Assembly: GCF_009914755.1 (NCBI RefSeq) | Contig: NC_060947.1 | Source of the DNA: the human T2T-CHM13v2.0 reference genome, Homo sapiens | Reading direction: 5' to 3' (one strand) | Length of the DNA stretch: 64,000 nt | Part shown: positions 20,458 to 64,000 of the stretch, one piece after another | How the letters are laid out: every line of letters begins with the position of its first letter | Numbering within the stretch: the stretch's first letter is position 1 | Translations under genes and position numbers: made by a program | Notes under the pieces: model-generated | Databases searched by the model: none | What the model was told of the DNA's origin: nothing | The model's input: the letters and a program-made list of their open reading frames with translations, nothing else

Positions 20458-21398
20458 CTACTTTGCAGGTATTTCAACCATTATTTCCATGAATTCCTCC
20501 TCCTCCATTTGGAGGGGGTTGATTCTGTTCTCTCGGGCGTGGTCATTCAGCAGTTCCTCTGGAGATGTTCTTTTCACGTTCCTCCTGTAGCGAACCACTA
20601 GTATGGTCGAGGACTCAGATGTTTTCATTTTTTTAGGAGCAGGTTGCGGGTCTGAGTCCCCAGTTGGGGTCTCCGGCATCTGTTAAGAAAGCAGGGAGAG
20701 GCCAGGAGGACATTATTTTGGGTGAACAGGATAGAGACTGGATAGCAAGGGGACTTCATGAGAAGAAGGAATGCGGGTTGAGGAAGGGGTTTGATCCAGA
20801 GAAGAAGAAGGTTGAAGCACAGAGTAGGGATCTATGGGGAAGAAGAAGAGGAGCGTGGGTAGGGTCACCTGTGAGTCCAAACTGCACCATTTTGTCAGTT
20901 CTTTGCTATTTTGCAGACCTTGGTCAAAGTGAAACATCCCATGGGGGTTCAGGCCGTGAGAAACATCCTGCCTAACCACCTGTCCGCAAGGCGGACAAAG
21001 GCCCAACTGAAGAAACATCCCTATCATATCTTGCTTGGCAGCGTTCTAAGGAACACCACAATGATATTCCACCAGAAAAAGGGCCAAACCACCTGATCAT
21101 AAGAACATCTTATCAATATCCTGCCGGGCAGCAAGCCATACTGCCCAGGCCCCTCCCACCCCTACCTACAAGCACCCCAGCCTGTAAGCGGCGGTGGGCT
21201 CTGGCATTAAGCGGGCCCCCCACTTCCACAATGGTCTGCAATATTCCTGTGTTGTTGTTTGAGCCGCCCCCGCTCTGTGTGTCTTTCTTTCACCCTCGCC
21301 TTCACTTCAGAACCTAACAGTCTTACCATCTCGTTGGCCTCGTTGGAATCACAGGGGACGCTCCTCTTCACCCCGCCGGCACTGGATTGTTTGTCCAT
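20458..21398 (-). CDS. SPANXA1: SPANX-A sperm nuclear protein, 97 aa; exon 1 CDS 21398-21327, intron 21326-20680 (647 bp, GT-AG), exon 2 CDS 20679-20458
   Basis: Spliced product [97 protein letters not shown] is recognisable as SPANX-A. Donor ATG|GTAAGA, acceptor ttaacag|ATG, polyA signal AATAAA at 20423-20418. The A1/A2 labels come from recalled gene order. Confidence 0.93.
20870..21319 (+). mobile_element. ERV1 solo LTR (~450 bp) in the SPANX intron, antisense to the gene
   Basis: TG...CA termini (TGTGAGTCCAAACTGCACC...AGAACCTAACA). An intronic LTR is an established feature of primate SPANX genes, and the segment is absent from the paralogous intron at 62959-63147. Confidence 0.8.
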
Positions 21399-26493: not shown

Positions 26494-27434
26494 ATGGACA
26501 AACAATCCAGTGCCGGCGGGGTGAAGAGGAGCGTCCCCTGTGATTCCAACGAGGCCAACGAGATGTTAAGACTGTTAGGTTCTGAAGTGAAGGCGAGGGT
26601 GAAAGAAAGACACACAGAGCGGGGGCGGCTCAAACAACAACACAGGAATATTGCAGACCATTGTGGAAGTGGGGGGCCCGCTTAATGCCAGAGCCCACCG
26701 CCGCTTACAGGCTGGGGTGCTTGTAGGTAGGGGTGGGAGGGGCCTGGGCAGTATGGCTTGCTGCCCGGCAGGATATTGATAAGATGTTCTTATGATCAGG
26801 TGGTTTGGCCCTTTTTCTGGTGGAATATCATTGTGGTGTTCCTTAGAACGCTGCCAAGCAAGATATGATAGGGATGTTTCTTCAGTTGGGCCTTTGTCCG
26901 CCTTGCGGACAGGTGGTTAGGCAGGATGTTTCTCACGGCCTGAACCCCCATGGGATGTTTCACTTTGACCAAGGTCTGCAAAATAGCAAAGAACTGACAA
27001 AATGGTGCAGTTTGGACTCACAGGTGACCCTACCCACGCTCCTCTTCTTCTTCCCCATAGATCCCTACTCTGTGCTTCAACCTTCTTCTTCTCTGGATCA
27101 AACCCCTTCCTCAACCCGCATTCCTTCTTCTCATGAAGTCCCCTTGCTATCCAGTCTCTATCCTGTTCACCCAAAATAATGTCCTCCTGGCCTCTCCCTG
27201 CTTTCTTAACAGATGCCGGAGACCCCAACTGGGGACTCAGACCCGCAACCTGCTCCTAAAAAAATGAAAACATCTGAGTCCTCGACCATACTAGTGGTTC
27301 GCTACAGGAGGAACTTTAAAAGAACATCTCCAGAGGAACTGCTGAATGACCACGCCCGAGAGAACAGAATCAACCCCCTCCAAATGGAGGAGGAGGAATT
27401 CATGGAAATAATGGTTGAAATACCTGCAAAGTAG
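26494..27434 (+). CDS. SPANXA2: SPANX-A second copy, 97 codons; exon 1 CDS 26494-26565, intron 26566-27212, exon 2 CDS 27213-27434; donor is non-canonical TT
   Basis: Same protein as the minus copy except F59 (RRNFKRTS). Donor reads ATG|TTAAGA, acceptor intact, AATAAA at 27469-27474. May be splice-defective in this haplotype. Confidence 0.85.
26573..27022 (-). mobile_element. ERV1 solo LTR in the SPANX intron (mirror copy)
   Basis: Reverse complement of 20870-21319. Confidence 0.8.
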
Positions 27435-61216: not shown

Positions 61217-62001
61217 CAGGATATCTAGGCACTCTTCACTACCACCAGGGATCTTTTTTCTCTTGCTTTAGCTTCCTAACTGGCACTGCTACCTGCTGGT
61301 GACATGCAGTTTGAGCTACTGCCTGCGGCCTAGCTTGTACTTTAAACTGTACTGCTTTGTGCAGCATTGGTAGGGTTCTACCAAGCCTATGCTAAAGATT
61401 TCAACAACGTAAGTCAGCAGTTTAACTAATTGACATTTATTGACAGGAATATTGGGTTGGAGCCCTTCTTAATGCAGCCCTGAATCTTGTGTTTCAGCCT
61501 GGATCTGTGAATTCAGATTGAATCATGTGTCTCAATTCCAATATAAGATATGACTGAAACTAGGCTCAAGGATAAACTCTTCCGTTTTTACCATCAGTTG
61601 TTTCTAAACCAGGTGTTAGTATTCTTTCTTTAGACAGTTGAGGAGAAAGACTGAGAGTCTCTTCAATATATAGGCCCACTGGTTGGTCACTCATATGGAG
61701 GGAGAGCAGTTACTATTTGAAATGCTGAGAACACACTCCTAAAAGCAGATAACTCACTAGGAGCTTTAAAAATGCTTCTTGCGATACTGTTTAGGTCAGT
61801 GTCACAAAAAAGATTTTGATCATCAGAGTTTTAGGGAGAAACATCCATGACACCCTTGTGGAAAAAAACAACGGATTCATTCAACCATTTTCATGAAGGA
61901 GTCCCATAATCCTGATGATATTGACTTGATATGAGGTTCTCTGAAAGAAGAAACTTATATGAATAAGGTAGAGAGGAATGTCCATGAATTGTATGCAGTA
62001 A

Positions 62002-62002
<1 letters not shown>

Positions 62003-62040
<38 letters not shown>
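62003..62040. repeat. (CA)n microsatellite in the upstream region of the SPANX-like gene
   Basis: Direct reading, ~19 units. Confidence 0.97.
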
Positions 62041-62043
<3 letters not shown>

Positions 62044-62049
62044 TGGGAA

Positions 62050-62571
62050 AGTTGCCTGGTAGAGGCACGTGTTGTTGGAGAAAAGTGAGATAACTCACAT
62101 CTGTATTTAGACTTAAATATGGGTACACTGGCTCAGAAGGATTTTCGATAAGACATACAAAATATCCAGTATTGGTGAAGGCTGGGAGACAACAGAATGA
62201 ATGACTGATTGGGGTAGCCATGGGGAATGCCTTGGGGGAAACACCCTTCTAAGCCATGTGACACACCACAATTAAACTAGGAGAGACAAAGAAGGGTGAG
62301 AGGTCACTTTGGAATGACCCTTATTGGTGTTGAGGAAGCTCTCCTTTTTCTCTAACCAGACCATTTAGACTCCTCTGTACCCTGTCCCTCCCCGCATGGA
62401 ATTGTCAGGAGTGGTGCTTTGTGATGTGTAAGCCATGAAATTGTCAGGAGTGTTGCCTGGTGATGTCTAAGCCACCCCAGGGCTACCACTGGCAGAGTAA
62501 TTTCTTGCTGGCCAATCAAACTGAAGAATGTGGAATCTCATTGTCCTGAGGAGTATATATAGAGAGAGATC
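62050..62571 (+). promoter_or_regulatory. SPANX-type promoter: TATATATA at 62554-62561, CCAAT at ~62512, duplicated GTGATGT-AAGCCA element
   Basis: Colinear similarity to SPANX-A upstream DNA 25950-26420, e.g. ggtgaaggctgggagacaacagaatgaat vs ggtgagggctggaagacaaaagaatgaat and aagccaccccagggctaccactggc vs aagccaccctagggctgccattggc. Confidence 0.8.
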
Positions 62572-63303
62572 ATGAGGCCTGGAGTAGGCTACTGTTGCTC
62601 TAGGGTGGCAGGGGTTAGGGAAAAATCAGGAGAGGCTGTAGGCTACTGTTCATCTAGGATGGCAGAGTTTAGTGAAGAAGAGGAAGACACTGTACGCTAC
62701 TGTTGTTCTACAATAGAAGATGTTCCTGAAGAAATAAAAGAGGCTATAGCCTACTTTTGCTCTAAGATGGCGGAGATTAACAAGGAGCCAGAAGGGAATA
62801 TAGGCCACCATTGCTACGTTATCCCAAAGGTTACCGAGGAAGTAGGAGAAGCTAGTTCAGACATGCCTGAACCATCCACAAGCACAAGCCAAGAAAATCC
62901 CAGCATGAAATGGAGAAAGAAAACTACTTGTGAAGCTAAAGAAGGTGAAACTGACGAGGTCAGATATCCCTAATTATGTGACTCTTCCTCCCCATTGATA
63001 CCTAACCCAAGATTCCTACCTTGTCCTTATCTGGCACAAAATCTTTCCTCAACCTGTACACATCATCACAAAATCTCCCTTTCCACACATTCCCCATCCA
63101 CTTCTCCAAATTAATGTCTCTTTTGGCTCACTCTGTTTTTCTTCCAGTTGTTGAAGGCAGCAAAGAAGATAAGATCATTTGTTCAGCAGAATTCAGAAAG
63201 ACGTAAAGCGGGGAAAAAGTCAACTGTATTAATTTTTTATTACCACAGTAATAAAAAAAGGGATGAAAATCAGCCAAATGAGGATGAAGACAGCCACGAG
63301 TAA
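62572..63303 (+). CDS. Diverged two-exon SPANX-family protein: exon 1 62572 (or 62659)-62958, intron 62959-63147, exon 2 63148-63303; 180 aa (151 aa from ATG 62659)
   Basis: Phase-0 donor GAG|GTCAGA and acceptor tttttcttccag|TTG. Exon 2 translates LLKAAKKIRSFVQQNSERRKAGKKSTVLIFYYHSNKKRDENQPNEDEDSHE*, aligning with the SPANX [14 protein letters not shown] core. ATTAAA at 63433-63438; the 3' flank is homologous to the SPANX-A 3' flank. Translation is unproven and it could be a transcribed pseudogene. Confidence 0.65.
62581..62850 (+). repeat. 5 x 54-bp degenerate in-frame tandem repeat (18-aa unit)
   Basis: Units at 62581, 62635, 62689, 62743, 62797: GVGYCCSRVAGVREKSGE / AVGYCSSRMAEFSEEEED / TVRYCCSTIEDVPEEIKE / AIAYFCSKMAEINKEPEG / NIGHHCYVIPKVTEEVGE. 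Confidence 0.9.
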
Positions 63304-64000
63304 TCTCCCACCTCAAGTGATTCTGAGAGCTCATCAGAAGACCAAGACCTATCTCGTCTCTAGCTTAACCTCTAGAAATGGTCTCCTGTGCAGAGAAACT
63401 ACATATTGCACCAAGATTCTTGGATGTTGGTGATTAAAATTCAACCAAAAGATTTTGAAAAGTTCTGTATATCTCTGTGGTGTTTTCTAATAATGGAGAG
63501 GGAGGGAAAGAAGGGGAAGAGCATGTGTATGAGGAGGGAGGGAGTTGAGAACCTTCCAGGTTGTGAGACAGGCTGGTAGCCACAGTTAGCCAGACATTGG
63601 GATTAAGGACTAGATGAGGAACGAGCACTGAAGACAAATTTCCTGCTTAATAATTTATTCCACAGTAAAAGAGGAAAAGGAATTGGTGTTTCTGTGTGTG
63701 TGGGAGGGTGTAGATAGGGAGAGTTGTGATGTGTATGGGGTGGTAGTATGCAACAATGGGTTTGATTCCGTTTTTGATGTTTGTCTGCCGCCAGATTTTA
63801 AGCTTCATCTCATTCCCTTCTCCTACCCCACATCTGATCAAGCTGATAAAAACAACTGGAGAGTTACTGAATTTAAAATGGAAATGAACAGATATGCCCA
63901 GCCTCAACTATTTTAATTATTCCCTTGCCTAAAATCCCCATATCCATGGCATCAATTCTTTCCAAATATCCCCTACTGATCATGGACAATCTAACCTAAT

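What the first reader, a model, noticed from the sequence alone, without database searches (positions are those of the whole stretch)
61950..63610. Hidden, deeply diverged and apparently intact SPANX-family gene 35 kb downstream of SPANXA
Seen: every part of a SPANX gene is present in order and is homologous to the SPANX-A copies in this window. This includes ~600 bp of upstream/promoter DNA, a TATA box, and an exon 1 ending MPEPSTSTSQENPSMKWRKKTTCEAKEGETDE (cf. [19 protein letters not shown]). It has a phase-0 GT-AG intron at the same position and an exon 2 with KSTVLIFYYHSNKKR (cf. [15 protein letters not shown]). A polyA signal and 3' flank follow (tgtatatctctg...tgttttct...cagttagccagacattg vs tgtatatctctg..tgttttct...cagtaagccagacattg). 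The ORF track shows only exon 1; the spliced frame is open for 180 codons. Known: the described human family is SPANX-A/B/C/D and SPANX-N1-5, and this protein matches none I recognise. From memory, an uncharacterised non-coding locus (LOC645188) maps about here; I cannot verify that. Inference: a testis-specific protein-coding member of a third, older SPANX branch that may be mis-annotated as non-coding.
Basis: partly seen in the sequence, partly recalled or inferred. Interest (0 to 1): 0.88.

Follow-up and report, generated by a model that had tools for sequence, protein, structure and literature searches.

The report
Old SPANX-type gene labelled non-coding
The human "non-coding" gene LOC645188 is an old, separate relative of the SPANX sperm-protein genes whose protein reading frame is kept in monkeys, apes and other mammals, so it may be an overlooked human protein gene.

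Summary
At window 62073-63690 (+) lies a complete two-exon gene unit (CCAAT, TATA, exon 1, 189-bp phase-0 GT-AG intron, exon 2, ATTAAA, 3' flank). It is colinear with the SPANX genes at 61-70% DNA identity, and it coincides with RefSeq lncRNA LOC645188.

Two corrections apply. The ATG that gives 180 codons (62572) lies 11 bp upstream of the annotated start of transcription. The first AUG of the transcript (62659, A at -3, G at +4) opens a 151-codon spliced frame.

That 151-residue frame is what protein models of gorilla (146 of 151 identical), gibbon, three Old World monkeys and two New World monkeys encode. Related "uncharacterized" proteins occur in pig, mustelids, camel, a bat and rodents. 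The human frame resembles these more than it resembles SPANX-N or SPANX-A/D of its own genome.

In promoter DNA the locus is about 40% diverged from all ten canonical SPANX genes, which differ among themselves by 13% or less. It is therefore a third, older lineage.

The ORF is clearly maintained across anthropoids. Human and gorilla, however, share a stop that removes the last 20-30 residues, and nothing here shows translation in human.

Verdict: a real, new member of a known superfamily. Coding status in human is about even odds.

The parts
62073..62582 (+). Upstream/promoter block shared with SPANX-N and SPANX-A/D, and also with VCX and CSAG-like loci. It holds CCAAT at 62512, TATATA at 62554 and a locus-specific 39-bp tandem duplication at 62395-62474. 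It is CpG-poor (2 CpG in 600 bp).
   Evidence: blastn; TRF; motifs and CpG
62583..62958 (+). Exon 1 of NR_171017.1 (RefSeq coordinates supplied with the finding)
   Evidence: annotation given; donor GAG|GTCAGA read, the same hexamer as in SPANXN4
62584..62853 (+). Five diverged tandem units of 54 bp (18 codons), all open in the gene's frame. Each unit is former 5'UTR plus the ancestral Met-Ala-Glu start. Units 2 and 4 keep an ATG.
   Evidence: TRF (sees 2.2 copies), self-blast, unit table, exon-1 alignment
62659..62661 (+). First AUG of the annotated transcript, with A at -3 and G at +4. It starts the 151-codon spliced frame and is the same start as in the gorilla, gibbon and Old World monkey protein models.
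62863..62958 (+). Part of exon 1 homologous to SPANX exon-1 coding sequence (internal Met, then a Lys/Arg-rich stretch with the conserved Cys)
   Evidence: blastn to the SPANXN4 exon-1 locus L021; protein alignments; DNA alignment
62959..63147 (+). Intron of 189 bp, GT-AG, phase 0. Its length and sequence resemble the intron read through in a relative's retained-intron protein model.
   Evidence: P0016 against P0006
63148..63303 (+). Coding part of exon 2 (51 codons plus TAA). It holds the most conserved core of the family, a predicted helix then a hydrophobic strand.
63304..63363 (+). Former coding tail: 19 codons still open to TAG 63361-63363, matching the C-terminus of the gibbon and monkey proteins. 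It is cut off in human and gorilla by TAA 63301.
63433..63461 (+). ATTAAA polyadenylation signal and the annotated transcript end
   Evidence: annotation given
63466..63690 (+). 3' flank homologous to the 3' flank of SPANX genes, of CSAG-like loci and of DNA just downstream of VCX genes

Best explanation
LOC645188 is the human copy of an X-linked, eutherian-wide gene of the VCX/SPANX/CSAG superfamily. It uses the SPANX reading frame but belongs to a lineage that split off long before SPANX-N and SPANX-A/D diverged from each other.

It keeps the older gene architecture: a short intron of about 190 bp and a Met-Ala-Glu start upstream of the SPANX-type Met. In anthropoids a 54-bp piece (5'UTR plus start codon) was tandemly duplicated in frame, which added an acidic, Cys-containing N-terminal extension.

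The annotated transcript's first AUG (62659) opens a 151-codon frame with its stop in the last exon. I consider it most likely that this is translated in male germ cells into a protein of about 17 kDa that is largely disordered. Its conserved element is a basic helix followed by a short hydrophobic strand (FVQQNSERRKAGKKS-TVLIFYY). By analogy, that element would act as in SPANX proteins, which associate with nuclear or perinuclear structures of spermatids.

Shown: the homology, the lineage position, ORF conservation in anthropoids, and the conserved core.
Inferred: translation in human, tissue, localisation and function.
For: Gene anatomy is complete.

Colinear DNA homology:
- To all ten canonical SPANX genes.
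- Exon 2 plus intron plus flank align to SPANXN4 over 745 bp at 63% (E 4e-59).

Primate orthologues:
- Gorilla model P0001 (151 aa) equals the frame from 62659: 146 of 151 identical.
- Gibbon 119 of 150, macaque 98 of 151, marmoset 71 of 150.

Wider relatives:
- An exhaustive profile search found 19 representatives at E<=0.001.
- A word-based search named relatives from pig, wolverine, stoat, camel, a bat and 5 rodents.

The human frame is closer to these than canonical SPANX is:
- A profile of 18 of these relatives (10 named non-primates, 8 unnamed) scores the human 151-aa frame at 92.9 bits, SPANX-N1-5 at 17-34 bits and SPANX-A-D at 8.5-11 bits. The best of 3600 shuffles scores 9.5 bits.
- 16 of the 18 score best against LOC645188 in blastp.
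- The SPANX-homologous 83 aa is 40/81 identical to pig, against 20/72 to 26/66 for SPANX-N.
- Searching the whole human genome with the pig and Mus caroli proteins returns LOC645188 exon 2 as best hit and no canonical SPANX exon at E<=10.

Tree: the primate LOC clade (99/98) sits next to rodents, and the topology is broadly species-like.

Polarity: SPANX-N1-5 carry ATA or ACA in their 5'UTR exactly where the relic L033 has the Met-Ala-Glu ATG.

Constraint:
- The 15-residue core has 6 changes against 1.37 per column elsewhere (permutation p=0.0025).
- Neutral survival of the ORF over the 8-species tree was 0 of 20000 and 0.0004 in simulation.
Against: - No expression, ribosome or peptide data were available. 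RefSeq curators class the gene as lncRNA.
- Human and gorilla share a stop that removes the C-terminal 20-30 residues kept in gibbon and monkeys. Kouprina et al. 2007 (PMC1831492, passages read) regard similarly truncated SPANX-N1 and SPANX-N5 as likely pseudogenes.
- Since that stop arose, survival of the rest of the frame is expected by chance in 42-55% of simulations. Human-gorilla amino-acid divergence (5 of 151) is about what I would expect under neutrality.
- Pfam SPAN-X is below its 22-bit cut-off: 15.0 bits for exon 2 and 15.8 bits for the gorilla protein. It gave no match for the gibbon protein.
- The relatives are all automatic 'uncharacterized protein' models. Species with a broken frame would not appear, which is an ascertainment bias.
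- The 18 proteins were found with a LOC645188-type profile, so their greater likeness to it is partly built in.
- Orthology is not settled. A dead second lineage (L033 at chrX 11.48 Mb, L038 at 138.79 Mb) scores as well as LOC645188 with the wolverine protein.
- The AU test does not reject a primate-only duplication (p=0.107).
- The AlphaFold model has low confidence (mean pLDDT 49).
Confidence: 0.55

Rival explanations
1. Transcribed relic. The gene was protein-coding in anthropoid ancestors but lost its function in the African-ape lineage when the stop at 63301 arose. In human it is now what RefSeq says, a lncRNA or unitary pseudogene whose remaining frame is open by chance.
For: - The stop is shared by human and gorilla and cuts off the tail kept in gibbon, 3 Old World monkeys and 2 New World monkeys.
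- Neutral survival of the remaining 151 codons on both branches is 0.42-0.55.
- Human-gorilla protein divergence is 5 of 151, near my neutral expectation.
- Two other lineage-mates in the human genome are dead.
- The only literature found is two gene-list mentions. One reports zero reads in motor neurons, the other a microarray change in a breast-cancer line.
Against: - Every functional signal is intact: TATA, first AUG in good context, both splice sites, stop in the last exon, polyA signal.
- The conserved core is untouched.
- The lost tail is the least conserved part of the family across mammals.
- C-terminal length also varies among accepted SPANX-N genes.
Confidence: 0.35
2. It is not specifically a SPANX relative but simply another copy of the shared VCX/SPANX/CSAG gene unit. 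Its SPANX-like peptide similarity would be incidental, so it belongs with CSAG or VCX, or is a family of its own.
For: - Promoter DNA is as far from canonical SPANX (0.36-0.38) as from CSAG-like relics (0.37-0.41), and little closer than VCX (0.43).
- Pfam SPAN-X is sub-threshold.
- The database's precomputed labels put the non-primate relatives in a different Pfam entry, PF27987, which I could not inspect.
Against: - The reading frame and the core motif are those of SPANX, not the CSAG frame.
- A profile of the relatives scores SPANX-N1-5 at 17-34 bits, all above the best of 3600 shuffles (9.5 bits).
- SPAN-X is the top or only relevant Pfam match for 10 of 18 relatives. One exceeds the cut-off (25.1 bits), and one camel protein carries both Pfam labels.
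- The promoter tree puts the locus on the SPANX side of the one supported deep split (96/97).
Confidence: 0.07
3. Chance open frame in repeat-derived DNA; there is no gene.
For: The 54-bp period is a multiple of three, so one open unit makes the array open.
Against: - Colinear homology to a gene family at E down to 1e-59.
- A curated transcript with exactly these exon borders.
- Orthologous protein models in at least 17 named species.
Confidence: 0.01

Closest known systems
SPANX-N subfamily (human SPANXN1-5, especially SPANXN4)
   Same: - Two exons with a phase-0 intron at the same place, and the donor hexamer GTCAGA as in SPANXN4.
- CpG-poor promoter (2 CpG per 600 bp against 1-5).
- The same reading frame and core (hydrophobic strand, then Lys-rich stretch, then Asn-Gln).
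- An acidic Ser/Asp/Glu tail in the untruncated primate forms.
- X-linked at Xq27.

   Different: - Only 20/72 to 26/66 identical residues.
- Promoter 0.36-0.40 diverged, against 0.13 or less within canonical SPANX.
- Starts upstream at Met-Ala-Glu, whereas SPANX-N has that codon mutated and lying in its 5'UTR.
- Has the 54-bp in-frame repeats.
- Intron of 189 bp rather than about 650 bp to 8 kb.
- No 39-bp minisatellite array.
- Below the Pfam SPAN-X cut-off.
SPANX-A/D subfamily (SPANXA1/A2, B, C, D)
   Same: The same gene unit, lying 35 kb from SPANXA2. Promoter, intron 3' part and 3' flank are homologous.
   Different: - Exon 2 is not alignable at DNA level.
- 16/61 identical residues.
- The SPANX-A/D promoter is CpG-richer (11-14 CpG).
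- According to Kouprina et al. 2007 (PMC1831492, section read), SPANX-A/D is confined to apes; LOC645188's lineage is far older.
Unnamed eutherian family of 'uncharacterized' proteins (for example pig LOC110257823, rat rCG61730, stoat LOC116583546; precomputed Pfam label PF27987)
   Same: - Met-Ala-Glu start, the same core and a short intron.
- The human frame scores 92.9 bits with their profile.
- Pig and mouse-lineage proteins find LOC645188 as the best human hit.

   Different: - Primates add 18-residue N-terminal repeats and lack the C-terminal Ser-Pro-Glu-Lys...Trp tail of the non-primate proteins.
- The primate proteins carry no precomputed PF27987 label.
- Synteny is unknown.
VCX/Y, CSAG and murine Cypt families (shared-promoter superfamily of Hansen et al. 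2008, Mol Reprod Dev 75:219; seen only as cited in PMC8327908)
   Same: The upstream block is shared with VCX and CSAG-like loci of this genome. The 3' flank also matches the CSAG-like loci and DNA just downstream of two VCX genes.
   Different: The coding frame and protein are different. CSAG-like loci read exon 2 in another frame.

Membership tests
SPANX (Pfam SPAN-X, PF07458) | Protein scores at or above the curated Pfam cut-off (22 bits) | tested here: not met
   - Exon 2 alone: 15.0 bits, E 0.039, aligned to the right profile positions 37-71.
- Exon 1 pieces: no match.
- Gorilla full-length orthologue: 15.8 bits, E 0.022. Gibbon: no match.
- Controls: SPANXA2 exon 2 scored 114.3 bits and exon 1 scored 34.2 bits.
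- The spliced human protein itself could not be handed to the tool.
SPANX (Pfam SPAN-X, PF07458) | Two-exon gene with a phase-0 intron at the conserved position | tested here: met
SPANX (Pfam SPAN-X, PF07458) | Colinear homology of promoter, intron and 3' flank with SPANX genes | tested here: met
   These blocks are also shared with VCX and CSAG-like loci, so they define the superfamily rather than SPANX alone.
SPANX (Pfam SPAN-X, PF07458) | SPANX reading frame with the conserved core (Cys in exon 1; hydrophobic strand plus Lys-rich stretch plus Asn-Gln in exon 2) | tested here: met
   Alignments. A profile of the relatives scores SPANX-N1-5 at 17-34 bits, all above the best shuffle of 9.5 bits.
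SPANX (Pfam SPAN-X, PF07458) | Post-meiotic testis expression and association with the sperm nucleus or acrosome | not testable with these tools
   No expression or protein data were available. Two papers list the gene only in tables.
Canonical SPANX clade (N + A/D) | Falls inside the clade of SPANX-N1-5 and A-D | tested here: not met
   - Canonical clade supported at 100/99 and excluding it.
- DNA distance 0.40 against 0.13 or less within the clade.
Eutherian LOC645188-type family (precomputed label PF27987) | Significant match to a profile of the non-primate members | tested here: met
   My own profile of 18 members scores the human frame at 92.9 bits. Caveat: the members were found with a LOC645188-type query.
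Eutherian LOC645188-type family (precomputed label PF27987) | Match to the Pfam model PF27987 itself | not testable with these tools
   The model is absent from the local Pfam copy. The precomputed column shows no label for the primate proteins.
VCX/SPANX/CSAG/Cypt shared-promoter superfamily | Shared upstream promoter block | tested here: met
   62-65% identity over 300-500 bp to VCX and CSAG-like loci. Tree.

The most novel reading that the evidence does not exclude
LOC645188 is the surviving human descendant of the ancestral eutherian SPANX gene and still makes a 151-residue protein in spermatids.

On this reading the famous SPANX-N and SPANX-A/D genes are a primate offshoot that lost the ancestral start codons, whose remains lie in their 5'UTR. 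The anthropoid N-terminus of LOC645188 was created by in-frame tandem duplication of a 54-bp piece of 5'UTR plus start codon, turning untranslated sequence into protein.

This would overturn two statements in print: that SPANX has no clear orthologues outside primates, and that SPANX-N3 is the original locus.
Probability: 0.35. Interest if true: 0.7.

Novelty: new member of a known kind. Interest (0 to 1): 0.55.

Why it matters
SPANX genes are cancer/testis antigens and models of rapid X-linked evolution, but their origin is unclear.

- Brashear et al. 2021 (PMC8327908, passages read) state that SPANX has no clear orthologues outside primates.
- Kouprina et al. 2007 (PMC1831492, section read) derive the family from a single ancestral SPANX-N gene, with SPANX-N3 as the original locus.

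A separate, older SPANX-type lineage with recognisable relatives in pig, carnivores, camel, bat and rodents gives that question a concrete anchor. It also offers a rodent gene for knock-out studies.

For human annotation, it is a candidate for re-classing a lncRNA as a protein gene. If it is expressed like its relatives, it would be a further cancer/testis antigen candidate.

The in-frame duplication of 5'UTR plus start codon is a tidy example of new coding sequence made from untranslated sequence.

Tried and rejected
**Searches that gave nothing useful**
- Searching the human genome with exon 2 as protein found only itself plus one chance hit. The Pfam SPAN-X search of the genome listed 21 matches from 25 candidates but not this locus. 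Neither tool's first pass is sensitive enough for it.
- ESM Atlas: no usable hit.
- PDB sequence search: only designed helical repeats, E 0.008, judged irrelevant.
- Rfam: two sub-threshold hits on the CA repeat.

**Structure**
- AlphaFold2 on a 25-row alignment gave mean pLDDT 49. This is too low for a fold search, so none was run.

**Phylogeny**
- The AU test of 'primate LOC plus canonical SPANX form one clade' gave p=0.107. The protein tree therefore cannot date the duplication.

**Identities I could not establish**
- P0015 starts like SPANX-N4 and is the only relative besides the bat protein that scores better with a canonical SPANX. It has no source name.
- PF27987 could not be inspected.

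**Literature**
- Kouprina et al. 2004 (PMC365747) and Hansen et al. 2008 are not held. Either may already mention this locus.
- Table S2 of PMC1831492, with the accession numbers of the rodent and dog SPANX-N sequences, is an old .doc file and was not opened. I could not confirm that their single rodent SPANX is the rodent protein found here.
- Searches for 'LOC645188' (2 papers, gene tables only), 'SPANX-N' + 'pseudogene', 'SPANXA2-OT1', and 'SPANX' + 'orthologs' + 'non-primate' + 'uncharacterized' (0 papers) found nothing describing the locus as a SPANX relative.

**Other**
- A weak chr1 hit of the pig protein (E 0.012) is Lys/Asn-rich low-complexity sequence and was dismissed.
- dN/dS could not be computed because no primate DNA is reachable with these tools.
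Full report
**1. What is in the sequence**

Reading window 61800-64000 and scanning motifs gives, in order:
- a CCAAT box at 62512 and TATATA at 62554;
- the RefSeq transcript start at 62583;
- exon 1 up to 62958, with donor GAG|GTCAGA;
- a 189-bp intron ending TTCCAG at 63147;
- exon 2 from 63148, with stop TAA at 63301-63303;
- ATTAAA at 63433 and the annotated transcript end at 63461.

The ATG at 62572, however, lies between the TATA box and the transcript start. In the transcript model the first AUG is 62659, with A at -3 and G at +4. It opens a 151-codon frame with no upstream out-of-frame AUG before it and with its stop in the last exon.

Exon 1 contains five diverged tandem units of 54 bp (18 codons) at 62584-62853, all open in this frame.

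**2. Homology to SPANX is real and colinear**

Against the rest of the window:
- upstream block 62073-62576: 61% over 510 bp, E 1e-32 to 1e-34;
- 3' part of the intron: 67%, E 8e-15;
- 3' flank: 70.5%, E 1e-25.

All three match both SPANX-A copies. A Pfam SPAN-X search of the window's own genome (human, 24 contigs) located the exons of ten canonical SPANX genes. Against those loci the upstream block matches all of them. Exon 2 aligns at DNA level only to SPANX-N1-5. The longest alignment is to SPANXN4: 745 bp at 63%, E 4e-59, covering intron end, exon 2, 3'UTR and flank. The intron is phase 0 at the same alignment position in all.

**3. It is a separate, much older lineage**

| Segment | LOC645188 vs each of ten SPANX genes | Among the ten |
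|---|---|---|
| About 600 bp of upstream DNA | 0.40-0.41 | 0.13 or less |
| Intron 3' part | 0.29-0.36 | 0.17 or less |

In a protein tree of 34 rows (88 core columns), the eight canonical human SPANX proteins used form one clade (100/99) that excludes LOC645188.

Rows left out of that tree were the fragmentary, retained-intron or N-terminally mispredicted models P0008, P0011, P0012, P0016, P0018, P0020, P0022, P0029, P0033, P0035 and P0036, plus SPANXA2 and SPANXC, which are near-copies of A1 and D.

**4. The promoter and flank are not SPANX-specific**

A DNA search of the genome with the locus, followed by blast, found further X-linked loci:
- Five carry the same upstream, intron and flank blocks in order: L029, L031, L032, L033 and L038.
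- L030 matched only the intron-to-flank part.
- The VCX genes share the upstream block, and the 3' flank matched DNA just downstream of two of them.
- L029-L031 read exon 2 in a CSAG-like frame.

This fits the shared-promoter superfamily of VCX/Y, SPANX, CSAG and murine Cypt proposed by Hansen et al. 2008. I know that paper only as cited in PMC8327908 (passages read).

In a promoter tree of 15 rows the radiation is deep and star-like. LOC645188 is 0.36-0.38 from canonical SPANX, 0.37-0.41 from CSAG-like loci and 0.43 from VCX. It falls on the SPANX side of the one supported split (96/97). Assignment to the SPANX type therefore rests on the reading frame and the protein core, not on the flanks.

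**5. Relatives elsewhere**

- A word-based search with exon 1 found a gorilla 'uncharacterized protein' of 151 aa and a gibbon protein of 171 aa.
- The gorilla protein is the frame from 62659: 146 of 151 identical.
- An exhaustive profile search with these two found 19 representatives at E<=0.001.
- A second word-based search with an alignment of 14 named relatives found 23 proteins at E<=0.001 among 4463 candidates. They include marmoset, owl monkey, pig-tailed macaque, snub-nosed monkey, proboscis monkey, pig, wolverine, stoat, camel, a bat and five rodents. All are labelled uncharacterized or hypothetical.
- The non-primate ones carry a precomputed Pfam label, PF27987, which the local library lacks. 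The primate ones carry none.

**6. The human frame resembles these relatives more than it resembles human SPANX**

| Test | LOC645188 | Canonical human SPANX |
|---|---|---|
| Profile of 18 relatives | 92.9 bits | SPANX-N1-5: 17-34 bits; SPANX-A-D: 8.5-11 bits |
| Identity of the SPANX-homologous 83 residues | 40/81 to pig | 20/72 to 26/66 to SPANX-N; 16/61 to SPANXA1 |

- The 18 relatives comprise 10 named non-primates and 8 unnamed proteins that I presume to be non-primate. The best of 3600 shuffled decoys scored 9.5 bits.
- In blastp, 16 of 18 score best against LOC645188. The exceptions are the bat protein and the unnamed P0015.
- Searching the whole human genome with the pig protein gives LOC645188 exon 2 first (47.1 bits) and the Xp22 relic second (37.4 bits, 3 stops).
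- The Mus caroli protein gives LOC645188 first (34.2 bits).
- The wolverine protein gives the relic (42.6 bits) and LOC645188 (42.3 bits) level.
- No canonical SPANX exon is listed at E<=10 in any of the three searches.

Caveat: the relatives were found with a LOC645188-type query, so this likeness is partly built in. I had no search left to look for canonical-type SPANX proteins outside primates.

**7. Which form is older**

- Non-primate relatives and the dead human copy L033 start with Met-Ala-Glu about 13 codons upstream of an internal Met.
- In an exon-1 DNA alignment, all five SPANX-N genes have ATA or ACA in their 5'UTR exactly where L033 has that ATG, and ATT where LOC645188 and L033 have the internal ATG. 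Canonical SPANX thus looks derived by loss of the older start codons.
- The 54-bp unit of LOC645188 corresponds to the TSS-proximal 5'UTR plus the first 11 codons. Its in-frame tandem duplication made former UTR coding.
- The catarrhine proteins align over the same repeat units as the human frame. The two New World monkeys have more units.
- A retained-intron model (P0016) differs from its spliced counterpart (P0006) by a 64-residue insert that resembles the translated human intron of 63 codons. The short intron is therefore old.
- The protein tree places the primate LOC clade (99/98) next to rodents (84/42), in a broadly species-like order.
- An AU test does not reject joining canonical SPANX to the primate LOC clade (p=0.107). 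The date of the split is open.

**8. Is it coding?**

Across anthropoids, yes, as far as these data go.
- Eight species spanning apes, Old World monkeys and New World monkeys keep the frame and, in catarrhines, the same start.
- In a simple neutral simulation on the human coding sequence, the frame survived a tree of total length 0.23 in 0 of 20000 runs (indel-to-substitution ratio 0.1) and in 0.0004 of runs (ratio 0.05). The branch lengths were my own recalled estimates.
- Changes are unevenly spread. The 15-residue window FVQQNSERRKAGKKS has 6 changes on the species tree against a mean of 1.37 per column (10000 permutations, p=0.0025).
- Elsewhere the protein changes fast. Human-macaque identity is 98/151 and human-marmoset 71/150. 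By my recalled genome-wide neutral divergences, that is two to three times what a neutral sequence would show. This is the pattern reported for SPANX and other X-linked testis genes (PMC1831492, section read; PMC13616518, passages read). A locally high mutation rate could also produce it.
- Ascertainment matters: species with broken frames would have no protein model.

For the human copy the evidence is weaker.
- Human and gorilla share TAA at 63301 where the gibbon protein reads on. The 19 codons after it are still open and match the gibbon and monkey tail.
- Since that event, neutral survival of the remaining frame on both branches is 0.42-0.55.
- Human-gorilla divergence of 5 of 151 residues is near neutral.
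- All signals needed for expression and translation are intact, and the conserved core is untouched.

**9. Likely working**

The 151-residue product would be 17.3 kDa with pI 4.95. It has an acidic N-terminal repeat part (pI 4.25) and a basic SPANX-homologous part (pI 8.7).

AlphaFold2 on 25 aligned relatives gives a mostly disordered model (mean pLDDT 49). It shows a helix at 92-120 (pLDDT up to about 74) followed by a strand at 126-132, which coincide with the conserved core.

By analogy with SPANX proteins, I infer a small, charged, largely disordered spermatid protein whose helix-strand element mediates binding to a nuclear or perinuclear partner. This is inference only.

The promoter is CpG-poor like SPANX-N: 2 CpG in 600 bp, against 1-5 for SPANX-N and 11-14 for SPANX-A/D.

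**10. What is known**

- RefSeq lists the gene as lncRNA.
- Full-text search for 'LOC645188' found 2 papers, both gene tables.
- Three further searches found no description of it as a SPANX relative.
- Kouprina et al. 2007 do not mention it in the section and passages I read (section 19; term searches). They infer a single ancestral SPANX-N gene with SPANX-N3 as the original locus.
- Brashear et al. 2021 state that SPANX has no clear orthologues outside primates.
- Hansen et al. 2008 and Kouprina et al. 2004 were not available and may bear on novelty.

**11. Verdict**

The locus is a genuine, deeply diverged SPANX-type member of the VCX/SPANX/CSAG superfamily. Its coding frame has been maintained in anthropoids and it has recognisable relatives across eutherians. 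Whether the human copy is still translated is about even odds.

Noticed in passing
window 26566-26567 (SPANXA2 intron donor): In this assembly the first two intron bases of SPANXA2 read TT, not GT (...GAGATG|TTAAGA). The inverted twin SPANXA1 has GT at the matching place (21325-21326 on the minus strand). If real, SPANXA2 of this genome may not splice normally at the annotated donor.
   Followed up: partly
L033 (own genome chrX 11,482,500-11,483,700, minus strand) and L038 (chrX about 138,792,400-138,793,600, plus strand): These are two copies of a dead LOC645188-type gene: TATA box, Met-Ala-Glu start, GTCAGA donor, intron of about 210 bp, and the non-primate-style C-terminal tail. They share the same in-frame stop after the core, so the gene was already dead when it was duplicated. 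L033 has further stops and a frame problem at an A-run at the start of exon 2. They rival LOC645188 as orthologue of the carnivore genes.
   Followed up: partly
L029 (chrX 147.32 Mb), L030 and L031 (chrX 149.77-149.78 Mb), L032 (chrX 119.81 Mb): These are further X-linked copies of the gene unit. L029, L031 and L032 carry the upstream, intron and 3'-flank blocks in order, and L030 the intron-to-flank part. L029-L031 read exon 2 in a CSAG-like frame. L032 has ATA at the Met-Ala-Glu position. I did not establish whether these are annotated genes.
   Followed up: partly
loci L012, L013, L015, L016, L021 (5'UTRs of SPANXN1-5): The 5'UTR of all five SPANX-N genes aligns to the N-terminal coding sequence of the LOC645188-type genes, with the two older ATGs changed to ATA/ACA and ATT.
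   Followed up: yes
window 62003-62041 and 62395-62474: A (CA)19 microsatellite lies just upstream of the homology block. Within the promoter there is a 39-bp tandem duplication (2.1 copies, 87% matches) that SPANX-N2 and SPANX-N3 have only once.
   Followed up: no
protein P0015 (representatives library, no source name): This 99-residue protein starts and ends like SPANX-N4 but has a LOC645188-type middle. It is a possible intermediate between the two lineages. Its species is unknown.
   Followed up: partly
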